From UHGV virus genome UHGV-0870948: a DNA stretch of 43,859 nucleotides. The stretch is one strand, 5' to 3'. This stretch comes from a virus. The position numbers and the translations under genes are program-made. Below are positions 1-43,645 of the stretch, one piece after another (the stretch's first letter is position 1; each line of letters starts with the position of its first letter). The notes under the pieces are model-generated. The model ran no database searches and was not told the origin of the DNA. It worked only from the letters and a program-made list of their open reading frames with translations.

Positions 1-67
1 TTTCACGATTACGCGCAATACCCCTGAGAACCGCCATGAACAAGGGCTTCATGATTTGTGATTTTAG

Positions 68-91
68 TTTGGTACGCAATTTGGTACACAA
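68..91 (+). repeat. Two tandem 12-bp direct repeats (TTTGGTACGCAA, TTTGGTACACAA); candidate integrase arm-type sites at the integrase-distal prophage end
   Basis: Core TGGTACRC is repeated here and three more times just upstream of int at 43654-43700, all in the same orientation. Confidence 0.4.
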
Positions 92-240
92 CACAATTTT
101 CACTTCAGCGGGTAGTCATCAAACTCACCATAACGAGCATCGTTAATGATGTATGTGATCACCACAAACATCACATCTGGACTAGTTCCGTTTTCATGCG
201 CAGGTATTTGTTCACGCCTCCCTTTCTGCAAATCCTAAAG

Positions 241-372
241 ATGAGATTTAAAGATGATGAACTGGCGCAATATAATTTGTGGCTGGATTATCTGGACGCA
301 CTGGAACTGGTTGATTCCTCCAGTGCGCCAGATATTGAATGGCCTACGCCTCCGGCTGTTCAGGCCAGATGA
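241..372 (+). pseudogene. Inverted C-terminal remnant of a tail fibre assembly (Tfa) gene
   Basis: Translation ...[32 protein letters not shown] parallels the C-terminus of the minus-strand Tfa (...[30 protein letters not shown]); only about 44 codons, convergent with the intact tfa. Confidence 0.45.
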
Positions 373-955
373 TATCCGGCGCGGTGCTGGTATCTGTTGC
401 CGTCACCGCGTCAATGTAATCCAGCACGGCGTTAAGTCGGGTTGTTTCTGCCTGCGTCAGCTTCCGCCCGGCCTGCAATTTCAGTTGAATCAGACTGATG
501 GAAGCCATTGCAGCATCAATCAGTGACTGTCGCTGTGCTTCCGCCGCTTCTACTGCGGCGCTATGCTGTGCCTCAGTATCCGTCACCCATTTTTGACCAT
601 CCCATTTATCATATGGCGTTAACTGGGGGATAGTGGTTGTATTTTCAGGGTAATCACCCGGAGCTGTGATTTCTTTTGATTCTCCTGTTTCGGTGCTAAA
701 GACGATTTCACCGCGATGGTCTGGCACATATTCCCATGAGTTAAAATCTGCAGAACGGCAGATTGCATAACCAGCTTTATGTGTAACTGGTGCATCTAAA
801 CAAGAACATGCCGGGATACCGACACCAACGGCAAGATATTCAGTTGATGTGGAAATATATTCCCGCGTTTCACCGCTGTAGTTGTAAACGGTGATGAAGC
901 CAGCTTCTGTTGCGAATCCGTTTTCATCTAAGGTGATTTTTTTTGTGGTCATCAT
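344..955 (-). CDS. Tail fibre assembly protein (Tfa)
   Basis: 203-aa ORF directly downstream of the tail fibre gene with 4-nt overlap; characteristic Tfa C-terminus ...[11 protein letters not shown]. Confidence 0.8.
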
Positions 956-3634: not shown

Positions 3635-3987
3635 TACGCCTCCGATGTAACAGTCGTTATTCCATAGAGAGTGTCGATTTCAGCGGAAAACATGACACGT
3701 CGGGTCGTGGTATCCACCGTCGTATTGAAAGAGAGGATTGATTTAACGCCCTGCGTTTCGAGGATGCGCTTACGGATCGCCAGGTTGTAAGTTTCTGGTT
3801 TTTGCCTGCCCAGCACGGACTGGATCCACGGTGTTCCCTCTGTGGTATCAAGAAACCATTGCCCATACCACAATTCGAATCGCGTTTTCACAGCCTGCGC
3901 TACGGCCTCAGGCGAGTTAATCAGCCAGGTGTCATCACCGCTGCCAAAGGTGTAATCGCCATCGGCGTCTTCACGTCTGTATCGCAT
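3634..3987 (-). CDS. Small baseplate-associated protein (gp46/W-like)
   Basis: 117-aa ORF coupled between the spike and J-like genes. Confidence 0.45.
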   Translation of the reverse strand: MRYRREDADGDYTFGSGDDTWLINSPEAVAQAVKTRFELWYGQWFLDTTEGTPWIQSVLGRQKPETYNLAIRKRILETQGVKSILSFNTTVDTTTRRVMFSAEIDTLYGITTVTSEA

Positions 3988-4596
3988 CAGTTTACCCCGT
4001 CGGTACTGCTTCCACCACGCTGAACACCACCATGAGTGTGTGTATCATCGATTGGCTTGCCATTAGCCTTCACGCTCCCCAAAAACTCAACAGCACCAGT
4101 GATTTTTGAAGCCACACCAGAAACCACAGACCCCACCATGCCCCCCATCCAGGTTAACAGGCCATGAATGGTTACTTTCTCAGAAAAATCAGCCAGAGGG
4201 GCAACCACATCAAGACCACCTGGAGCGACAATTTTAATTTTCCTGGTATCAGGATTAAGCTCAAAATAGGTGCTGCCGTCATCACTACGCAACTGTGTGG
4301 CACTGGTATTAATACCGCTAATCTTCCTTGCCTGCGACTGGGGACCGACAATACAAAACGCATCCGATAAATCATGCATTCTGTCATCGACCGACTCCTG
4401 TATCCCGCCACTCTGCCACCAGAAATCAATACAACGATCGGCAAAAATCACCAAACATTCATCACCGGCTTTAACTGGGAACGTTAGCGTACATCCTCCG
4501 CCGCGCGGGAATACCACTGGCACATCCACCAGCAATGGGTAATTTTTGGTAATGCGGTTGCCGTCATTATCCTTTTCAACCGAACGGATAGCAGGC
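3987..4596 (-). pseudogene. Baseplate spike protein (gpV / Mu gp45-like), 3' portion separated from its 5' end by the IS66-family insertion
   Basis: Frame continues ...PAIRSVEKDNDGNRITKNYPLLVDVPVVF...; the PA codons lie in the left TSD copy and rejoin in frame with the fragment at 7138-7288. Confidence 0.7.
4589..4596. repeat. Target-site duplication, left copy (TAGCAGGC)
   Basis: Identical 8-mer abuts both ends of the IS66-family element. Confidence 0.8.
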
Positions 4597-4626
4597 GTAA
4601 GCGTCAACGGAGCACCGTATTGACGC

Positions 4627-6240
4627 TTATTTATTAGTGAGTACTACGTTCCATGGCAGGAGTTCGTCAACTCGGTTGGAAGGCCATTCCGGCAGTACGC
4701 TCAGGATATGGCGCAGATACGCTTCCGGATCGATACCATTCAACCGGCAGGTGCCGATCAGCCCGTACAACAGTGCACCACGCTCGCCTCCGTGATCGCT
4801 ACCGAAGAACACGTAATTTTTCTTTCCGAGACAGACTGCACGAAGCGCTCTTTCCGCTGTGTTATTGTCCGCCTCCGCCAGACCGTCATCACAGAAGTTG
4901 CACAACGCAACCCAGTGCTTCCTGATATACCGGAACGCATCTCTCAGACGGCATTTTTTCGATAACGTGTGTTCTTTCTCCTGCATCAGCTTATACAGGG
5001 AAGTCAGTAGCGGTTTACTCTGCATTTGCCTGACCGCCAGGCGTTCAGACACCGGCAACCCGCGTATTTCGTGCTCAATGGCGTACAGTTCGCCGATTAG
5101 TTTCAGTGCTTCTTCCGCCGTCGCGCTTTTGGTACTGATATATACATCGTGGATTTTGCGCCGTGCATGAGCCCAGCATCCTGCTTCCGTCAACGCGCCG
5201 CCTTCACGTTCGGCACTGAACAGCCGATCGTAACCTGCGAACGCATCTGCCTGCAGGATACCCCGGAAGGGACGAAGGTGTTGCTCCGGATGTTTACCCT
5301 GATGGTCCGGTGAGTAGGCGAACCAGACCGCCGGAGGTTCTGGCGAACCGGCATTTCGGTCATCCCGGACATACGTCCAGATATATCCTGTTTTCGCCTT
5401 CTTCCTGCCCGGTGCCAGTACTTTTACTGGTGTGTCATCAGTGTGAACCTTGCGGGTGTTCATCACATAACTGTACAGGGCATCATTCAGCGGAGTCATT
5501 AACTGGCAGCACGCATCAACCCAGTTGGAGAGTAAGGCACGGCTCAGTTCGACACCCTGGCGGGCAAAGATTTCACTCTGACGATACAGTGGCAGGTGTT
5601 CGCAGTATTTTCCCGTTAACACGCGGGCAAGTAACCCCGGGCCCGCGATACCACGCTCTATCGGACGGGATGGTGCCGGTGCTTCAACGATGCAGTCACA
5701 TTTTGTACAGGCTTTTTTTACCCGTTCTGTGCGGATCACTTTCAGGGCGCTGCTCACCAGTTCCAGTTGTTCTGCGCTGACTTCCCCCAGATAATCCAGC
5801 TCACCGCCACACTCCGGGCAACAGCTTTCTTCAGGCTCCAGGCGGTATATTTCACGGGGGAGATGTGCCGGTAACGGACGACGATGGCGCGACTGTCGCA
5901 ACTGGCGGGGAACCAGCGGGTCATCCTCACGCCCACTGTAACGATCGCTTTCCTGCTCGCGTTGTTTCAGCAGGGCTTCAGCCTGTTCAACCTCACGACG
6001 CAGTTTTTCAGAACGGGTTCCGAACAGCATCCGGCGCAGTTTTTCTATCTGAGCCCGCAGATGCTCTATTTCCCGTTCATCTTCTTCGATCTTTTCTTCG
6101 GCACGTGCCAGTGCAGAGCGCAGGAAGGCCTCCGTCTCTTCAACCAGACTCAGTTGCTGGTCTTTCTGACGGAGGGCTTCAGCCTGCTCAGAGAGCAGCC
6201 TTTCCAGCTCAGCGATGCGAATGAGGTATTTCTGACTCAT
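4627..6240 (-). CDS. tnpC: IS66-family transposase TnpC
   Basis: 537-aa ORF with N-terminal coiled-coil, CxxC...CxxC zinc motif and conserved IS66 transposase core. Confidence 0.85.
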   Translation of the reverse strand: MSQKYLIRIAELERLLSEQAEALRQKDQQLSLVEETEAFLRSALARAEEKIEEDEREIEHLRAQIEKLRRMLFGTRSEKLRREVEQAEALLKQREQESDRYSGREDDPLVPRQLRQSRHRRPLPAHLPREIYRLEPEESCCPECGGELDYLGEVSAEQLELVSSALKVIRTERVKKACTKCDCIVEAPAPSRPIERGIAGPGLLARVLTGKYCEHLPLYRQSEIFARQGVELSRALLSNWVDACCQLMTPLNDALYSYVMNTRKVHTDDTPVKVLAPGRKKAKTGYIWTYVRDDRNAGSPEPPAVWFAYSPDHQGKHPEQHLRPFRGILQADAFAGYDRLFSAEREGGALTEAGCWAHARRKIHDVYISTKSATAEEALKLIGELYAIEHEIRGLPVSERLAVRQMQSKPLLTSLYKLMQEKEHTLSKKCRLRDAFRYIRKHWVALCNFCDDGLAEADNNTAERALRAVCLGKKNYVFFGSDHGGERGALLYGLIGTCRLNGIDPEAYLRHILSVLPEWPSNRVDELLPWNVVLTNK

Positions 6241-6270
6241 GGCCGTTTTTATAATGCGGTCAGGAGTTTT

Positions 6271-6621
6271 TTACAACATTGTCAGTGCGTTAAGGCGGGA
6301 TGTTTTTGGCTGACGCCAGTCCAGCTTATCGAGGAGCATTGCCAGTTGCGAGCGGGTAATGGATATCTTACCGTCACGCACCGCAGGCCAGATAAACTGA
6401 CCTTCCTCAAGGCGTTTGGTGAACAGGCACAGACCATCAGCATCAGCCCACAGGATTTTAATCGTGTCTCCCCGTCGGCCACGGAAGATAAACAGGTGAC
6501 CGGAGAAGGGGTTATCATCCAGCACATGCTGTATTTGCTCCCCCAGACCGTTGAAGGATTTACGCATATCAGTAACGCCGGCAACGAGCCAGATACGGGT
6601 ACCTGATGGGAGTGAAATCAT
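6271..6621 (-). CDS. tnpB: IS66-family accessory protein TnpB (Orf2)
   Basis: 116-aa ORF MISLPSGTRIWLVAGVTDMRKSFNGL... typical of IS66 Orf2; overlaps tnpA. Confidence 0.8.
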   Translation of the reverse strand: MISLPSGTRIWLVAGVTDMRKSFNGLGEQIQHVLDDNPFSGHLFIFRGRRGDTIKILWADADGLCLFTKRLEEGQFIWPAVRDGKISITRSQLAMLLDKLDWRQPKTSRLNALTML

Positions 6622-7055
6622 CGTCCCCTCCCGGTCAGCTCACGGATCAACACCGTGAGCAGCTCTGGTGAAGGATTTTCCAGCATCATTTTACCGTAAT
6701 GGAATTCCACATGGCAGGAAGCTGCACAAGCAACTGATAATGCCTCCGGAGCAGGAGCATCTGTAGCACAGCGCGTGGTGTCGATAAGTTCCACTGGAAC
6801 CAGAGTCGGAGAGGCCGGAAAAGATTGTGATACTGTAGGGCCTACAATAGTTGGAGGCATTCTGCGAGAAATACGTCCTTCTCTTTGCCAGAGGCGTAGC
6901 CATTTAAAAATCAGGTTGTTATCAACGCCATGTTCCCGGGCCAGTTGTGCAACATTGGCATTTGGTTTCGAAGCCAGTTCAACCATATGAAGTTTAAATT
7001 CATTAGAAAATATCCGGCGGGTTCCGGAGCGCCAGTCTGTAGGTTTATCCATCAA
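6618..7055 (-). CDS. tnpA: IS66-family accessory protein TnpA (Orf1)
   Basis: 145-aa ORF with HTH-like segment (FSNEFKLHMVELASKPNANVAQLAREHGV), first gene of the IS66 operon. Confidence 0.75.
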   Translation of the reverse strand: MMDKPTDWRSGTRRIFSNEFKLHMVELASKPNANVAQLAREHGVDNNLIFKWLRLWQREGRISRRMPPTIVGPTVSQSFPASPTLVPVELIDTTRCATDAPAPEALSVACAASCHVEFHYGKMMLENPSPELLTVLIRELTGRGR

Positions 7056-7137
7056 TAGAACTCCGTCTAATTTAGAAGGAGCTCTAATTTAGTCTGCAAG
7101 GAGCAGGTGTTACAGACGGCATTGGCTTTACGCTTAC

Positions 7138-7145
7138 TAGCAGGC
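7138..7145. repeat. Target-site duplication, right copy (TAGCAGGC)
   Basis: Identical to 4589-4596. Confidence 0.8.
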
Positions 7146-7288
7146 TGCACAACTGCCGTCACCGCATCAGGATCGAATGACTGAATAATGCCAGGCAAGG
7201 CGACACGGATCTGGTTCTTTGTTGTTTCCCGTTCAGATTTGAATGTTTCGGCAAGGTCGCCGCTGCGGGTCTGGTCAGATACTGCCAT
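7138..7288 (-). pseudogene. Baseplate spike protein, 5' portion (first 50 codons) truncated by the IS insertion
   Basis: MAVSDQTRSGDLAETFKSERETTKNQIRVALPGIIQSFDPDAVTAVVQPA, then reads into IS sequence; rejoins in frame with 3987-4596 when the IS and one TSD copy are removed. Confidence 0.7.
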
Positions 7289-7307: not shown

Positions 7308-7330
7308 AAAAAACCCGCCGAAGCGGGTTT
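7308..7330. terminator. Rho-independent (bidirectional) terminator downstream of the HEPN-like gene
   Basis: AAAAAA-CCCGC-CGAA-GCGGG-TTT: GC stem flanked by an A-run on one side and a T-run on the other. Confidence 0.65.
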
Positions 7331-7347
7331 GATAACGTTAATTTTAT

Positions 7348-7743
7348 TCATGAAACTCTAGCAGACTTTAGCTGTTCCCAGCGCTCAAAATAGAGTTCAG
7401 CAGCCTCGATTGCATCCTGTCCCATCTCTTTCGAAACAGTCACATTCGTCAGATCATAGTCAGCTTCATTTCTAGCATCCCGCCACTGGCGAAGTACGAA
7501 AGCTAGGGATTTCAGTGTATTTGTCGGGTATGGCTCTGATTTGCACTCTGAGGGCGTTGACATATAACCCACAGTATTTTTGTGATGCTCATGGGTAAAA
7601 TGCGGTATGGCAGTAAGTGAGCTAATAGACTCATGTAACATACTGTAATACGCCCTTGAGATAGCGCTTCGAAATCCACTCTCAATATTTTCAGACAGAC
7701 ATAATCGAGCGGTATCGAGAATCTGATTGCTAGTTACCGACAT
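7348..7743 (-). CDS. HEPN-like small helical protein (candidate toxin/RNase component)
   Basis: 131 aa; AISRAYYSMLHE (R-x6-H, resembles the conserved HEPN helix) and LRQWRDARNEADY; overlaps the upstream gene by 14 nt; region visibly AT-richer than flanks. Confidence 0.5.
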   Translation of the reverse strand: MSVTSNQILDTARLCLSENIESGFRSAISRAYYSMLHESISSLTAIPHFTHEHHKNTVGYMSTPSECKSEPYPTNTLKSLAFVLRQWRDARNEADYDLTNVTVSKEMGQDAIEAAELYFERWEQLKSARVS

Positions 7744-8503
7744 GGTAGCTCACCCCCGTATGCAACTGACGCGGAGAGGTAAATCTAGCTAACAGGGAAC
7801 AATCATCCAGTTTAGATTCAGCGCAGACTCTATCAGCCAAGTCGAAGTTCATTTTGGCAATAGTTTTAGGCTCAAGATTTTTAATATCAACAACATAGCA
7901 ACCGCTTCCACTAAGCTGAACGAAACCTGTCGTAGCCTTGTATTCACTTAGCAAGCCCCAGATTATGGATGCTAAGGTCTGGAACTGTTCCTTCGAGCAC
8001 TGTGTGGCGCTATAGAAATTATCCATTTCTGCAAGGAGTTCTTCTTTGTGCTTCATAGCATTACTCCTGCCTTCTGATTCAGAAAGAAGCTTAATGTGCT
8101 CTTCCATATAAAATTTTAACTGTTCACGCTCGCCGCAACGGTACGCCCAACTGTATGCGTTGTGACTAAAGAGTTTTGTCCGATACTTCTTTGCCAGCGG
8201 GACATAGACATCCTTGAGTTCATTATAGCTAAATGTATTAATTAAAATGTGATGATAGTGCATTGCCAACGTTACATCGTTTACTTCTAGGCTTATCCTG
8301 AGATAACGTAACGCGCTTTCAATCTTTCCGGTTATTGCATCCAGATAAGATAGTGCAATGTTGGTAGCAGGCGTTGGAGAGACAGAAAGTTCCTCTCGAA
8401 TTTTCTTTTCAGTGAAGGGATCTAAACTTTCCCTATCCAATAGAAGCGCATTGAATTGTTCAATATATTTTTGCGCTTTTTCTAATGGGATGCCTGCCGC
8501 CAT
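7730..8503 (-). CDS. Hypothetical protein, partner of the HEPN-like protein
   Basis: 257 aa, predicted mainly helical, no motif recognised; translationally coupled to the HEPN-like ORF. Confidence 0.55.
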   Translation of the reverse strand: MAAGIPLEKAQKYIEQFNALLLDRESLDPFTEKKIREELSVSPTPATNIALSYLDAITGKIESALRYLRISLEVNDVTLAMHYHHILINTFSYNELKDVYVPLAKKYRTKLFSHNAYSWAYRCGEREQLKFYMEEHIKLLSESEGRSNAMKHKEELLAEMDNFYSATQCSKEQFQTLASIIWGLLSEYKATTGFVQLSGSGCYVVDIKNLEPKTIAKMNFDLADRVCAESKLDDCSLLARFTSPRQLHTGVSYHVGN

Positions 8504-8598: not shown

Positions 8599-8940
8599 TT
8601 AGCGTAACGCCTTTTTACAAGGGAATGATCCGATGATTTTAGGCGCATCCATGCTGTTCTGCAGAAGCTGGACGTTCAGGAAACGCGTTTCGGTGCCAGG
8701 GCGACGAATGTATTCAAAGCCGTAGTTGTTACCGTCTTTGGCAGGCATAAGCCCCATGTCTACTTTCAAACCATTGGTACCCAGTTCGGTGATTTTTTGA
8801 GAGGTAACTCTTTCACCGTTAATTGTCGATAACTCGCCCTGGTTTGCAACCATAGTGTAGCCACCGCATTTAACCGTGAAGCCATCCGCCCACACGCTGC
8901 ACGCAGAAAAGACAGCTAACAGAAAAATGATACCCCTCAT
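8599..8940 (-). CDS. Secreted (periplasmic) protein with N-terminal signal peptide
   Basis: MRGIIFLLAVFSACSVWA-DG...: hydrophobic signal peptide with A-x-A-type cleavage site; two Cys in the mature part; starts 4 nt after the hub-like gene stop. Confidence 0.55.
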   Translation of the reverse strand: MRGIIFLLAVFSACSVWADGFTVKCGGYTMVANQGELSTINGERVTSQKITELGTNGLKVDMGLMPAKDGNNYGFEYIRRPGTETRFLNVQLLQNSMDAPKIIGSFPCKKALR

Positions 8941-8943
8941 TGC

Positions 8944-10005
8944 TCATCCCCTTTGCAAAGCCGATTGCGTATACAGATCCGCCGCGCCACGCGCTTCGCA
9001 CATCATATCCATGTACCACGCCTGGCCCCTTGTATCGCCAGTGTACATAATCCCGCGCACAATATAAACGCCATCCGTTGCGATGCTGGCAGGTTGTGCT
9101 GTGGTGCCGCTGAGCGTGATATTTCCGTCTGTGTTCTGGTCGGTGATCTGCCCACCAGCCATCGCGATATCATTGTTCGACAGCGCGGTGCGGTACACGG
9201 AAGCCTGATCCAGCTGAATAAGCCCGTTAACCCGGATGTTCGGATTAATAAGAGCGCGGACGTTTACGCCGTTACCGATAGTCTGCTGCGGCATGCCGAT
9301 AAGCCCGGTGGCGCTGTTGAGCACAATCGCGTCGTGAACATACTCGTTATTCGCCACCATCTGGCGCTGACCGTCCACAAATTGCCATGTTGCGCCACAT
9401 TGTCCGGCCACGTTATCCATAAGATGCCGTGTCATGCCGAACAGCACCCGCCCTCGAGGGTATACGGTAGCAGGCATTTCAGGCGTCAGTCCTTCGGTCG
9501 CGCCTTTGGCCTCAAAGTCTTTCATCAGCGCACGGTTCACATCTGCGACTGTGTAACCGGCAGCCAGCGTCTGTGAGGTTATACTGGTGGCAAATGCCAG
9601 ATCAGTATCTGCTGCCTGAATCAGGACGTAGGTATCAACCGGACTGTCTTTTCCTGTGACCGAGTAGCGAATTTCTCCGCTGAAAATCAGCCCGTAGTTG
9701 CGGCCATCACTCTGGCCCACGTCCGCCGCGTCAACTTCCCGCACAGTCCCGACGTCGCTTGCCGCCACCTCCGGCGCGATACCGTCGTAACCGGCAATCA
9801 GCCGCACTTTCGAAAACTCCTGCCCGGTAATTCGGTTCACAGTATCTGCCGAAAGGTTATAAATTTTGATAGTCCCTACCCGGGACGCGCTGCTGATGTT
9901 GAACCAGTCGATCGTAAAGGTGACTTTGAAATCACTTAGCTCAATTCCCTTACCGTTCCCGTCCACAAGCTGCAGCTCGAAATGTCTCATCCAGTTCTGT
10001 GACAT
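8944..10005 (-). CDS. Baseplate hub-like / tail protein
   Basis: 353-aa ORF in the tail operon shortly after the tape measure gene; functional call is positional. Confidence 0.45.
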   Translation of the reverse strand: MSQNWMRHFELQLVDGNGKGIELSDFKVTFTIDWFNISSASRVGTIKIYNLSADTVNRITGQEFSKVRLIAGYDGIAPEVAASDVGTVREVDAADVGQSDGRNYGLIFSGEIRYSVTGKDSPVDTYVLIQAADTDLAFATSITSQTLAAGYTVADVNRALMKDFEAKGATEGLTPEMPATVYPRGRVLFGMTRHLMDNVAGQCGATWQFVDGQRQMVANNEYVHDAIVLNSATGLIGMPQQTIGNGVNVRALINPNIRVNGLIQLDQASVYRTALSNNDIAMAGGQITDQNTDGNITLSGTTAQPASIATDGVYIVRGIMYTGDTRGQAWYMDMMCEARGAADLYTQSALQRG

Positions 10006-26740: not shown

Positions 26741-26816
26741 TGGTGCTGGTTAACGGACTTGAACCGCTACCCATTCGCTTACAAGGCGACTGCTCTACCA
26801 TTGGAGCTAAACCAGC
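26741..26816 (-). tRNA. tRNA-Thr (anticodon UGU)
   Basis: Hand-folded cloverleaf: 7-bp perfect acceptor stem, D stem GCTC/GAGC, anticodon loop CTTGTAA, T loop TTCAAGT, 3' ACCA; 76 nt. Confidence 0.65.
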
Positions 26817-26821
26817 ATATT

Positions 26822-26896
26822 TGGCGGGACAGCGTGGACTCGAACCACGATAAGAAGGTTAACAGCCTTCCGTAATGACCTTTATACGACTGACCC
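26822..26896 (-). tRNA. tRNA-Asn-like (anticodon GUU), possibly degenerate
   Basis: T arm CGTGG-TTCGAGT-CCACG, anticodon arm GAAGG-CTGTTAA-CCTTC, 3' GCCA; one acceptor-stem and one D-stem mismatch. Confidence 0.4.
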
Positions 26897-26959: not shown

Positions 26960-28141
26960 CTAAATGGCTAATTGCATGTCAAGGCTTTTAACGGCAACAT
27001 GCTTAACTTTCTCAACACGTTTACGCATTTTGAAAGCATTTTGCATTGGCTGGTATAAAACAAATAATGACGCTTTCAGGATGTCGTCAATTTCGTTTCT
27101 ACAGGTTGCCAGTGAAGGTTTTCTCCATCCCTCGCCACCACGTCCACACATCTTGCGTGGCTTTGCAGTCGCGTGATAGTAGGATGCAATTGCTCGCTTA
27201 GATGAACCATGAGCGTAGTAGCTGAGGAGGATGCCAAAGGCTTTCTTGTCAATGTACATGACGGAATCGACGACCTGAGAAATCAACATTCCATCATCAT
27301 CATTGCACATTGGCCTTGTCATAACTCTTCCCGGCTCTACGCTCTCCATGAACTTCGCTATTACGCTGCTCATGCGCTTTTCCAGACGACCTGAATAAAC
27401 CCATGCGCCCCACAGTTCAAGCCAGCCATTCAGCCACTCGTGCTGCTCTTTGGTGAGGTTTAGTTCTCTTATGCCCACGCGCCTTCTCCCTGTACCTGAA
27501 TCAATGTGAGGTTTTCCGCAGAACACTGCGCCGGTATCGATATACATCTGGTTGGCAAACTTGAGTAGTTTCACTGCTGGCGTATGACCAAAGATGAACG
27601 TGTCAGCTCCTTTGATTTCTTTCACGATCCCGTCTTGTGAGTTGCTGATTCGTTCGCGGTTCCAGATTACCTGCTGATGATCAACTGGCTTTCCAAATTC
27701 GTATTCGTCACAAGGATAATCGGCGTGGCAGATGACATATTTTTTACCTTCGCTCACCAGTTCGATGATTAACGGAAGTTCATCTGCTTTATGGGCAAGA
27801 GCTTTAGCCAGAATTTCTTTGTCGTAATCGAGATTAAAGAACCAGCCACCGCCATTAAACAGCCAGTGATTGACGTTTCCGCGCTCTGATAAGCCATCAA
27901 TCATCATTTGCTCATGGTTTCCACGTACAACTCGGAACCAGGGGAATGTGATTAATTCCAGACATTCGACGTTCTCTGTACCGCGATCGACCAAATCGCC
28001 AACCGAGATAAGCAGGTCTTTTTTGGTGTCGAATCCTATCGTCTCCAGTTTTTTCATCAGGTTCGTGTAGCATCCGTGCAGATCGCCAACTACCCAAATA
28101 TTTCGGTATTTGCTGCCATCAATTCTTTCGTAATAGCGCAT
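26960..28141 (-). CDS. NinI-type Ser/Thr phosphatase domain continuous in frame with a Q-like late antiterminator domain (fusion or frameshift)
   Basis: N-terminal part matches lambda NinI (GDLHGC...GNHE); C-terminal part has Q-like motifs LELWGAW and [11 protein letters not shown]; no stop between them; the alternative frame after the A4 run encodes [14 protein letters not shown]-stop. Confidence 0.6.
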
Positions 28142-28325
28142 CTCTTTCACTCCATCCGCGATGAACCATGAGAACGTCGTTGACGATGGCGTGCATTTTC
28201 CCGTCTTTATCATCAACGTATTTTCTGACCGTGCCGCGACTACATTTCAGTCTGCGTGCTACTTCTGTCTGGTTTCCGTATGCTTCAACGAGCATGTCTG
28301 GAATGGTTTTTACTGAGAACGTCAT
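28119..28325 (-). CDS. ninH: NinH
   Basis: 68 aa, [36 protein letters not shown]...; lambda NinH-like HTH. Confidence 0.8.
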
Positions 28326-42294: not shown

Positions 42295-42486
42295 ATGACC
42301 GATACCAGCCTGATTCCTGAGAAAGAAGTGATGAACAAGCTCGGTGTTTCATCACGTCAGACAATCTGGAACTATACCAAACGGCACGGATTTCCGAAGC
42401 CAGTCAGAACCCACCCCAAATCATACCTTCGTGAAGCTGTTGAGGGGTGGATTCTTAACGGTGGCGTTAATCAGAAATGCTCCTGA
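42295..42486 (+). CDS. xis: AlpA/Xis-family excisionase-like DNA-binding protein
   Basis: 63 aa, ...EVMNKLGVSSRQTIWNYTKRHGFPKPVRTHPKSYLREAVEGWI; convergent with and overlapping the int 3' end. Confidence 0.6.
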   Translation: MTDTSLIPEKEVMNKLGVSSRQTIWNYTKRHGFPKPVRTHPKSYLREAVEGWILNGGVNQKCS

Positions 42487-43645
42487 TGTGCCAGAACAAT
42501 TTATCAGCGTGAAGCTCATACGCTTTGCGCTGAGCCTCTATCCAATCGTGTTTATTGTATACTGACATTATCCCGCCAAGTTCATGACCGAGCATTCGCT
42601 CAGTAACATGAGGCTCGACATTCATCTCGGACAGACGTGTAACAAGCGTTCTTCTGAAATCATGTGTTCGCCAGTAACCTAGGTCCACCCCTCCCCTTAT
42701 TCGATTTACGAATCGGTTGGCTGCAGCGATGCTGATCGGTTTGTTTATGTCTTCTCCAGGGAAAAGAACATCATTGTACGTTGTCATGGCCTTTTCGAGG
42801 AAAGGCTTAATTTGTTCGAAGATTGGACGGCGGATAACATTACCCATCTTGCTATGCTCTTTCGGTACGGTCCATACGTTGTCCAGCAGGTCAAACTCTG
42901 TCTTTGTTGCCAGCCTAAGCTCTGAGAGCCTCGCCCCCCACAGCATAAGCATCTGATGAAGTAGCTTATTTGACGTAGACGCACGGCTTCTTTCAATAGC
43001 AAGCCAAATCTTAGCCAGTTCGTGATACGACAGTACCCGATCCCCTACCTCAGCGCGGGAGCCGAAGTCCCTTGGTTGGATGCTCATAATTGCGCAACTA
43101 TCTATCAACTGACGCCGCATGCACCAACTTATTGCTGATCTTAGTTGACTTAGCACCTGTCTTGCTCGGCGTGGATTATCTCTTTCTTCTTCGGTAAGCA
43201 GGTCAACCCATTGCTTAACCGTGATAGAAGATGCCGGACGATTAGGAAAGGCGTCATGCATGCGCTTCATAACCGTTGATCGGTAAAGTGCCTGGGTCTT
43301 TTCTCTGAGAGTTGTAGAGACGTAGTTGTCGAACCAGTAGTCGAGACACTGGGCGACCGTCATGGAGTTCTCCACCTTCTCTTCAAAATAAGTGCGTGGA
43401 TCCGTTCCTGAGAAATAGAGCTTTCGCAAGTCAGCAGTGATCTGTCTGGCATCCTTCAAAGACAGGGATGGGTATCGACCAAGCCCAAGTCGATTAGGCT
43501 TGCCATGCCAGCGATAGCGGTACTGGAACTGGATGACCCCCTTCGGTGAAATTCGTACGCTGAGGCCATCGGCATCAGCCACTTCTTGTGGGCCCGAATA
43601 TGGTTTACCATAAATAGTACGCAGTTTTGTGTCGCTTATAGCCAT
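42467..43645 (-). CDS. int: Tyrosine-type site-specific integrase
   Basis: 392 aa; C-terminal catalytic region with HDFRRT and LGH...SVYNKHDW (R...H-x-x-R...Y pattern). Confidence 0.9.
   Translation of the reverse strand: MAISDTKLRTIYGKPYSGPQEVADADGLSVRISPKGVIQFQYRYRWHGKPNRLGLGRYPSLSLKDARQITADLRKLYFSGTDPRTYFEEKVENSMTVAQCLDYWFDNYVSTTLREKTQALYRSTVMKRMHDAFPNRPASSITVKQWVDLLTEEERDNPRRARQVLSQLRSAISWCMRRQLIDSCAIMSIQPRDFGSRAEVGDRVLSYHELAKIWLAIERSRASTSNKLLHQMLMLWGARLSELRLATKTEFDLLDNVWTVPKEHSKMGNVIRRPIFEQIKPFLEKAMTTYNDVLFPGEDINKPISIAAANRFVNRIRGGVDLGYWRTHDFRRTLVTRLSEMNVEPHVTERMLGHELGGIMSVYNKHDWIEAQRKAYELHADKLFWHIRSISD

What the first reader, a model, noticed from the sequence alone, without database searches (positions are those of the whole stretch)
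4589..7145. IS66-family element with perfect 8-bp TSD interrupts the baseplate spike gene
Seen in sequence: a tnpA-tnpB-tnpC element of about 2.5 kb with termini GTAAGCGT.../...ACGCTTAC is flanked by the direct repeat TAGCAGGC (4589-4596 and 7138-7145). Removing the element and one repeat copy joins MAVSD...AVVQPA (7288 downward) in frame to IRSVEKDNDG... (4588 downward), restoring a spike protein of about 250 aa. The prophage is therefore probably tail-defective, and the insertion is recent enough that the duplication is still perfect.
Basis: seen in the sequence. Interest (0 to 1): 0.6.

Follow-up and report, generated by a model that had tools for sequence, protein, structure and literature searches.

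The report
ISEc43 insertion splitting a prophage spike gene
A known E. coli jumping gene (ISEc43, IS66 family) has recently inserted into the tail-tip spike gene of an otherwise intact prophage, almost certainly disabling its tail; this is real but an ordinary kind of event.

Summary
Window 4597-7137 (2541 bp) is 100% identical to ISEc43, a catalogued IS66-family insertion sequence. It carries tnpA, tnpB and tnpC on the minus strand, has GTAAGCGT termini, and is flanked by a perfect 8-bp duplication, TAGCAGGC (4589-4596 and 7138-7145). Four of five other ISEc43 copies examined have their own perfect 8-bp duplications at exactly the same element ends. Removing the element and one repeat copy gives a 250-aa ORF identical to RefSeq WP_000301074.1, a gp138-type membrane-puncturing central spike. 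The excised 2-kb sequence matches six E. coli genomes at 100% in a single piece, so these are empty sites. The insertion lies between codons 50 and 51, inside the conserved N-terminal domain. The host element is a SEN34-like prophage with lambda-like early genes and a contractile tail. Its other virion, lysis and replication genes are full length, so the IS is the only structural lesion seen. The exact junction was found in none of 5,426 complete E. coli genomes or the other collections scanned, so it appears private and recent. Tail deficiency is a well-grounded inference, not shown here. Nothing is novel: a known IS behaves as known in a known gene. Interest is low.

The parts
4589..4596 (.). 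Left copy of the 8-bp target-site duplication, TAGCAGGC
   Evidence: Read directly. It abuts the ISEc43 end that was defined by comparison with other copies.
4597..7137 (-). ISEc43 (IS66 family), 2541 bp, complete, with its genes on the minus strand in the same direction as the phage late operon
   Evidence: 100% identical over its full length to three annotated ISEc43 copies and at least 99.8% identical to the other twelve copies listed. It has the same ends as five other copies.
4597..4620 (.). Terminal inverted repeat at the tnpC-proximal end (GTAAGCGTCAACGGAGCACCGTAT...). It also contains an internal 9-bp palindrome, AAGCGTCAA / TTGACGCTT.
   Evidence: Alignment of the two ends and the sequence itself.
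4627..6240 (-). tnpC, the 537-aa DDE transposase
   Evidence: Pfam DDE_Tnp_IS66 1e-95, plus zf-IS66, LZ_Tnp_IS66 and IS66_C. NCBIfam transpos_IS66 3e-134. Annotated as WP_000080172.1 in identical copies.
6271..6621 (-). tnpB, the 116-aa IS66 accessory protein (unrelated to IS200/IS605 TnpB)
   Evidence: Pfam TnpB_IS66 3e-36. NCBIfam IS66_TnpB 6e-35.
6618..7052 (-). tnpA, a 144-aa HTH accessory protein. Its stop overlaps the tnpB start by 4 nt.
   Evidence: Pfam HTH_Tnp_1 2e-10. NCBIfam IS66 TnpA models, below their cut-offs. RefSeq annotates 435 nt in identical copies.
7114..7137 (.). Terminal inverted repeat at the tnpA-proximal end (...ACGCTTAC)
7138..7145 (.). Right copy of the 8-bp target-site duplication, TAGCAGGC
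7138..7288 (-). 5' fragment of the spike gene (codons 1-50). As it stands it reads on into the IS as a 73-aa ORF, 7067-7288.
   Evidence: tblastn of the TUM2820 spike gives residues 1-50 at 100% identity at 7288-7139.
3987..4596 (-). 3' fragment of the spike gene (codons 51-250 plus stop). The mechanical ORF 3987-4607 starts at a TTG inside the IS end. The spike stop overlaps the start of the next gene, the gp25-like sheath initiator, as TGATG at 3985-3989.

Best explanation
A copy of ISEc43 transposed into the central spike gene of a resident SEN34-like prophage. Its DDE transposase TnpC, with the accessory proteins TnpA and TnpB, made staggered cuts 8 bp apart in the target, and repair of the gaps produced the TAGCAGGC duplication. 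The insertion falls between codons 50 and 51 of a 250-aa gp138-type membrane-puncturing spike, inside its conserved N-terminal domain. The gene is therefore split into a 50-codon head that runs into IS sequence and stops after 23 foreign codons, and a 200-codon tail with no native start. No intact spike can be made. On induction the prophage should therefore fail to assemble a functional baseplate and contractile tail, and should yield no infectious particles unless the IS is lost or the spike is supplied in trans. The event is recent and appears private to this isolate. Shown here: the identity of the element, its ends, the duplication, the empty site, the identity of the rejoined gene and the intactness of the other late genes. 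Inferred: the loss of spike function, the tail defect and any polar effect on the downstream baseplate genes.
For: The element is 100% identical to ISEc43 over 2541 bp. Four of five other copies carry their own 8-bp duplications at the same ends. A published ISEc43 insertion is also flanked by an 8-bp direct repeat (PMC6531882). IS66-family domains are present in all three ORFs. The excised 2 kb is 100% identical, in one piece, to six E. coli chromosomes that carry an uninterrupted spike gene. The rejoined protein is identical to WP_000301074.1 and is present as an exact sequence on at least 1000 contigs. It matches Pfam PF18352 at E=4e-44 over residues 31-132, and the apex motif at residues 232-248. 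It also matches solved spikes, including phi92 gene product 138 (3pqi), 4ru3 'puncturing protein gp41', 8eon 'baseplate spike' and 7yfz 'Pam3 spike'. These alignments start at residues 17-32, so the break at residue 50/51 lies inside the aligned domain. All 26 other tail, head, packaging and lysis proteins of the relative TUM2820 that have a counterpart in the window align full length, or nearly so, at 81-100% identity. The structural module is about 84% identical in DNA to phage SEN34, a plaque-forming temperate phage with a long contractile tail (PMC5261728). The exact junction is absent from 5,426 complete E. coli genomes, from the exact-protein index of public assemblies and from three contig collections.
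Against: No experiment shows that this spike is essential in this phage type; that rests on what is known for other contractile-tail phages (P2 gpV, Mu gp45, T4 gp5). An ORF starting at a TTG inside the IS end (4607) could in principle yield a 206-aa N-terminally truncated spike. The rest of the host genome is unseen, so a related prophage could supply a compatible spike. The window also has a 1-bp frameshift in the NinI-like phosphatase gene, so the IS may not be the only lesion, although that gene is non-essential in lambda.
Confidence: 0.9

Rival explanations
1. The prophage was already defective, and the IS insertion is a neutral secondary hit in a decaying element rather than the lesion that disables it.
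For: A 1-bp insertion in a T run at about 27509-27512 frameshifts the 3' end of the Ser/Thr phosphatase gene and fuses it to the Q reading frame. Relatives of this prophage are often degraded: the PK8276 copy is truncated after the baseplate plug gene.
Against: All other late, lysis, replication and regulatory genes that could be compared are full length. Q's own start lies downstream of the frameshift. The integrase has both of its domains. The frameshift sits in a homopolymer and may be a sequencing error. The IS and its flanks show no divergence, so there has been no long period of decay since the insertion.
Confidence: 0.1
2. The insertion does not abolish infectivity. Either a truncated spike is translated from the TTG at 4607, or a spike from another prophage in the same genome substitutes.
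For: The ORF 3987-4607 exists and keeps residues 47-250. Related spike alleles are common in E. coli: 316 of 5426 genomes match this region.
Against: The missing 50 residues include the first ~20 residues matched by the N-terminal domain model PF18352 (which spans residues 31-132). No promoter-like site reading outward was found at that IS end, and no obvious ribosome-binding site precedes the TTG. No second spike gene lies in the window.
Confidence: 0.06
3. The insertion is an assembly artefact: a repeated IS was wrongly placed inside the prophage by the assembler.
For: ISEc43-like sequence is multi-copy in E. coli, with a median of 3 places per genome. Repeats are a classic source of misjoins.
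Against: A misjoin would not create a perfect 8-bp duplication of target sequence at both ends of a complete element, nor leave flanks that rejoin exactly into a known gene.
Confidence: 0.01

Closest known systems
ISEc43 (IS66 family; the name used by RefSeq/PGAP after ISfinder)
   Same: 100% nucleotide identity over all 2541 bp, the same three ORFs, the same ends and an 8-bp duplication. A published ISEc43 insertion in SGI1-B-Ec1 ORF S023 is likewise flanked by an 8-bp direct repeat (PMC6531882).
   Different: Only the insertion site differs. This junction was not found in any other sequence searched.
IS66 / IS679 prototypes (Han et al. 2001, J Bacteriol 183:4296; Gourbeyre et al. 2010, Res Microbiol 161:136; both cited from my own knowledge, not read here)
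   Same: tnpA-tnpB-tnpC organisation with an overlap of tnpA and tnpB, a DDE TnpC, imperfect terminal repeats starting GTAA, an 8-bp duplication, and a length of about 2.5 kb.
   Different: A different member of the family. No functional data on ISEc43 itself were found.
Phage phi92 gp138 and related central spikes (PDB 3pqi, 4ru3, 8eon, 9b45, 7yfz, 9ndy)
   Same: The rejoined protein has the N-terminal domain of this family (PF18352, 4e-44), a C-terminal apex motif with THTH, similar length (250 aa against 207-247), and the same gene position between the baseplate hub and the gp25-like/J genes.
   Different: Sequence similarity to the solved proteins is distant (E from 3e-13 to 8e-6). The structure of this protein was not predicted or solved here.
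Salmonella phage SEN34 and E. coli phages vB_EcoM-606R2/689R2 (lambda-like early genes with a contractile tail)
   Same: The window's late region matches them at 84% (SEN34) and 95% (vB_EcoM) nucleotide identity over 59-64% of 22.9 kb. SEN34 forms plaques and has a long contractile tail. In vB_EcoM-606R2 the 753-nt spike gene is uninterrupted.
   Different: The window's copy carries the IS. It also has different cargo genes between hub and spike, and different early-region alleles.
Independent IS2 insertion in the same spike gene in E. coli S1-IND-01-A (NZ_CP145657.1)
   Same: The same prophage gene (99.6% identical flanks) is interrupted by an insertion sequence.
   Different: A different IS family (IS3/IS2), a 5-bp duplication, and a different position (equivalent to window 4194-4198).

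Membership tests
IS66 family insertion sequence | A DDE transposase of the IS66 type (TnpC) | tested here: met
   Pfam DDE_Tnp_IS66 1.2e-95, with zf-IS66, LZ_Tnp_IS66 and IS66_C. NCBIfam transpos_IS66 at 448 bits against a cut-off of 180.
IS66 family insertion sequence | Accessory genes tnpA and tnpB upstream of tnpC, with tnpA and tnpB overlapping | tested here: met
   TnpB_IS66 3e-36 and IS66_TnpB at 119 bits against a cut-off of 50. TnpA has an HTH_Tnp_1 domain, and its matches to the IS66 TnpA models fall below their cut-offs. The 4-nt overlap lies at 6618-6621.
IS66 family insertion sequence | Imperfect terminal inverted repeats beginning GTAA | tested here: met
   Both ends read GTAAGCGT. 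About 16 of the first 24 positions match.
IS66 family insertion sequence | An 8-bp target-site duplication | tested here: met
   TAGCAGGC on both sides. Four other copies have their own 8-bp duplications. The same is reported in the literature.
IS66 family insertion sequence | Transposition activity that requires TnpA, TnpB and TnpC | not testable with these tools
   Activity is inferred from many identical copies at different sites, each with its own duplication.
ISEc43 (specific element) | Near-identity to the reference element over its full length | tested here: met
   100% identity over 2541 bp to copies that RefSeq labels 'IS66-like element ISEc43 family transposase'. The ISfinder reference sequence itself was not available for comparison.
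gp138-type central spike (membrane-puncturing spike of contractile tails) | The N-terminal domain of the family | tested here: met
   PF18352 at 149 bits against a cut-off of 26.1, over residues 31-132 of the rejoined protein.
gp138-type central spike (membrane-puncturing spike of contractile tails) | A C-terminal apex motif with metal-binding histidines | tested here: met
   PF18946 Apex at 22.1 bits against a cut-off of 20.8, over residues 232-248. DDTHTHGG is visible in the sequence.
gp138-type central spike (membrane-puncturing spike of contractile tails) | A trimeric beta-helical needle fold | not tested
   Only sequence matches to solved spikes were obtained. No structure prediction was run.
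gp138-type central spike (membrane-puncturing spike of contractile tails) | Gene position within a baseplate module | tested here: met
   The gene lies between the baseplate hub (8944-10005; phrog_196, E217_GP41) and the gp25-like, baseplate J and DUF2612 genes.

The most novel reading that the evidence does not exclude
The spike gene of this prophage type may be a recurrent target of IS inactivation (ISEc43 here, IS2 independently in strain S1-IND-01-A). This could reflect selection on the host to disarm the virion while keeping the prophage and its cargo, such as the HEPN-like two-gene moron immediately upstream. That would be an early step of prophage domestication. In addition, the IS lies in the same direction as the late operon, so prophage induction might drive transposase expression.
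Probability: 0.07. Interest if true: 0.4.

Novelty: already known. Interest (0 to 1): 0.12.

Why it matters
The practical value is for annotation and strain biology. The split fragments should be annotated as one pseudogene interrupted by ISEc43. The prophage should be scored as probably non-infectious even though it looks complete to prophage-prediction tools. The private junction could serve as a strain marker. It adds one clean, fully reconstructable example of IS-mediated prophage inactivation, but it raises no new question about IS66 elements or phage spikes.

Tried and rejected
I looked for the same insertion elsewhere and found none.
- 600-nt queries across each junction against 5,426 complete E. 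coli genomes gave no place covering both sides.
- Exact look-ups of the two hybrid ORFs (73 aa and 206 aa) in the public gene-position index found nothing. Gene callers may not call these ORFs, or may pick other starts, so this is weak negative evidence.
- An exact 37-nt junction scan of the genome, viral and metagenome contig collections gave 0 hits in each.

I considered whether the two flanking frames could belong to different genes. This is rejected by the single-piece 100% matches and the identical annotated protein.

I considered target-site preference. The five duplications seen share no obvious consensus, but the sample is too small to conclude anything.

I looked for outward promoters or terminators in the IS that would bear on polarity. 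The consensus scan gave no more sites than shuffled sequence does.

For the neighbouring cargo genes, PADLOC and Pfam gave no significant hits. There is only a weak PDB HEPN match.

The PHROGs scan returned no family for the spike, for reasons I could not determine. Han et al. 2001 (PMC95320) is not held in the library, so the IS66-family defining features are cited from my own knowledge.
Full report
OBSERVATION

TAGCAGGC occurs at 4589-4596 and again at 7138-7145. The 2541 bp between the two copies (4597-7137) begin GTAAGCGT and end ACGCTTAC. The two ends form an imperfect inverted repeat: the first 8 bases match perfectly and about 16 of the first 24 match without gaps.

Three ORFs lie on the minus strand:
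- tnpA: a 144/145-aa HTH protein at 6618-7052/7055.
- tnpB: a 116-aa protein at 6271-6621, overlapping tnpA by 4 nt.
- tnpC: a 537-aa protein at 4627-6240.

Pfam and NCBIfam identify these as IS66-type TnpA, TnpB and the DDE transposase TnpC. DDE_Tnp_IS66 scores 1e-95, TnpB_IS66 3e-36, and NCBIfam transpos_IS66 reaches 448 bits against a cut-off of 180.

IDENTITY AND BOUNDARIES OF THE ELEMENT

A megablast of 4597-7137 against 5,426 complete E. coli genomes gave three full-length matches at 100% identity: the AST46 chromosome, plasmid pAST81_1 and an ETEC plasmid. The other twelve copies listed are 99.8-99.9% identical. All are annotated 'IS66-like element ISEc43 family transposase' with tnpB.

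I fetched five of these copies with 100-bp flanks. In every one, similarity to the window stops exactly at window positions 4597 and 7137. Four of the five are flanked by their own perfect 8-bp direct repeats: GGACTTCG, GATTAACG, GAACATTA and TGCCATTC. The fifth lies among other IS fragments and has none.

The element's ends are therefore defined independently of the repeat in the window. With the ends fixed, the chance that the two flanking 8-mers agree is about 1.5e-5. A published ISEc43 insertion, in SGI1-B-Ec1, is likewise reported to be flanked by an 8-bp direct repeat (PMC6531882).

THE INTERRUPTED GENE

Deleting 4597-7145 (the element plus one repeat copy) joins the two flanking frames into a 250-aa ORF. 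A 2000-bp query made of 1 kb from each side of the excised site matches six E. coli chromosomes at 100% identity in one uninterrupted piece, and more than twenty others at 95.7-99.6%. These are empty sites.

In strain PK8276 the gene is annotated as WP_000301074.1, a 'family membrane-puncturing spike protein' of 753 nt. Its translation is identical to the rejoined ORF. The same exact protein is on record on at least 1000 contigs.

Three lines place the protein among gp138-type central spikes:
- It matches the gp138-type N-terminal domain (PF18352, 4e-44, residues 31-132) and the GpV apex motif (residues 232-248, containing THTH).
- It matches solved central spikes of contractile tails: 9ndy 'puncture apparatus', 4ru3 'puncturing protein gp41', 8eon 'baseplate spike', 7yfz 'Pam3 spike' and 3pqi 'gene product 138' of phi92.
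- It sits within a baseplate module, described under prophage context below.

The insertion point lies between codons 50 and 51, inside the aligned N-terminal domain. As it stands, the 5' fragment reads 23 codons into the IS and stops (ORF 7067-7288). The 3' fragment has no native start. The mechanical ORF 3987-4607 begins at a TTG inside the IS end.

PROPHAGE CONTEXT

The window is essentially one prophage, with lambda-like early genes and a contractile-tail late module. The late region is 95% identical to the E. coli phages vB_EcoM-606R2/689R2 and 84% identical to Salmonella phage SEN34. SEN34 is a plaque-forming temperate phage with a long contractile tail and lambda-like early genes (PMC5261728).

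I took the annotated proteins of the closest complete relative (E. coli TUM2820) and ran tblastn against the window. The following all align over their full length, or nearly so, at 81-100% identity:
- baseplate wedge, baseplate J, the gp25-like sheath initiator, hub, plug and a further baseplate protein;
- tape measure, tail chaperone, tube and sheath;
- neck, adaptor, major capsid, cement, portal and head morphogenesis proteins;
- both terminase subunits;
- holin, endolysin and lysis protein;
- replication helicase and O-like protein.

Only the spike appears in two pieces, and no second spike gene exists in the window. The integrase at 42467-43645 has both of its domains. The IS insertion is therefore the only structural-gene lesion seen.

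One other lesion exists. A 1-bp insertion in a T run at about 27509-27512 frameshifts the last dozen codons of the NinI-like phosphatase gene into the Q reading frame, giving a 418-aa ORF. Q's own start lies downstream of the indel, so Q is probably intact. A homopolymer sequencing error is also possible.

AGE AND DISTRIBUTION

The IS has no differences from other copies, the duplication is perfect, and the flanks are identical to empty-site alleles. Neither junction is spanned in any of 5,426 complete E. coli genomes. The two hybrid ORFs are absent from the exact-protein index of public assemblies. A 37-nt junction string is absent from the genome, viral and metagenome contig collections. The insertion is therefore recent and, as far as can be seen, private to this isolate.

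MECHANISM AND CONSEQUENCE

Shown here: a standard transposition of a known, evidently active IS, with the 8-bp staggered-cut signature. Inferred: the spike gene is null.

Central spikes are required components of contractile-tail baseplates. This is established for P2 gpV, Mu gp45 and T4 gp5 (my own knowledge). In the solved baseplates matched, the related chains are named as the tail tip, the baseplate spike or the puncture apparatus. The prophage should therefore not produce infectious particles. I put this phenotypic step at roughly 0.75-0.8.

Three further points are inference only:
- The IS genes run in the same direction as the late operon, so Q-modified late transcription probably reads through them.
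- The spike stop overlaps the next gene's start (TGATG at 3985-3989). Loss of spike translation could therefore lower expression of the gp25-like protein.
- A strong terminator at 7330-7311 lies just upstream of the spike start. It closes the cargo genes and would shield the IS from their transcription in the lysogen.

RIVALS

- An already-decaying prophage (about 0.1). The only support is the NinI frameshift.
- Retained function through a truncated spike or a spike supplied in trans (about 0.06). No promoter or ribosome-binding site is evident, part of the conserved domain is lost, and the rest of the genome is unseen.
- An assembly artefact (about 0.01). This is incompatible with a perfect duplication and exact reconstitution of a known gene.

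COMPARISON WITH WHAT IS KNOWN, AND VERDICT

Every defining feature of the IS66 family that could be tested is met, and the element is an exact copy of ISEc43. The target is a catalogued spike family in a described phage type. IS interruption of prophage genes is commonplace; another strain, S1-IND-01-A, carries an independent IS2 insertion with a 5-bp duplication in the same gene.

Novelty: already known. Interest: about 0.12. The most novel reading not excluded is that recurrent IS inactivation of this spike reflects selection to disarm the prophage while keeping its cargo. Two independent hits are far too few to support this (probability about 0.07).

Noticed in passing
window 27509-27512 (ORF 26960-28216, minus strand): A 1-bp insertion in a T run (TTTT here, TTT in close relatives) frameshifts the 3' end of the NinI-like Ser/Thr phosphatase gene. 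It fuses that gene in frame to antiterminator Q, giving a 418-aa ORF with Metallophos and Phage_antitermQ domains. Q's own start, at about 27478, lies downstream of the indel. This may be a real lesion or a homopolymer sequencing error.
   Followed up: yes
window 7348-8503 (minus strand), with a terminator at 7311-7330: A two-gene cargo cassette lies between the baseplate hub and the spike. It consists of a 257-aa protein (phrog_17809; no significant Pfam or PADLOC hit) and a 131-aa protein that overlaps it by 14 nt. The 131-aa protein (phrog_5176) is called UPF0332/HEPN by some sources, matches a PDB HEPN protein at E=0.002 and has an R-x6-H motif, RAYYSMLH. A strong intrinsic terminator closes the cassette just upstream of the spike start. 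The slot is variable among relatives (TUM2820 has a DUF4282 gene there). PGAP does not annotate the 131-aa ORF in PK8276. It may be a toxin-antitoxin or defence moron.
   Followed up: partly
NZ_CP145657.1 (locus L010), equivalent to window 4194-4198: E. coli S1-IND-01-A carries an independent IS2 insertion, with a 5-bp duplication, in the same spike gene of a 99.6%-identical prophage.
   Followed up: yes
window 26741-26896 (minus strand): Two phage-borne tRNA genes, tRNA-Thr (tgt) and tRNA-Asn (gtt), lie between the Q gene and the holin gene.
   Followed up: no
window 58-372 (plus strand) and 344-955 (minus strand): A plus-strand ORF encodes what looks like the C-terminal part of a tail-fibre assembly protein. 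It converges on the complete minus-strand tail-fibre assembly gene. This is the layout expected for an invertible tail-fibre segment, or the remnant of one; relatives have a DNA invertase nearby. The window edge cuts it off.
   Followed up: no
window 4597-4630: The tnpC-proximal end of ISEc43 contains a 9-bp palindrome, AAGCGTCAA...TTGACGCTT, that overlaps the terminal repeat. Its role is unknown.
   Followed up: no
window 8599-8940 (minus strand): A 113-aa protein with an N-terminal signal-like hydrophobic segment sits between the hub and the cargo cassette. It belongs to the STY1065/STY2022 family and to phrog_3443, and is 62% identical to the TUM2820 homologue. It is conserved in this phage type, but its function is unknown.
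   Followed up: partly
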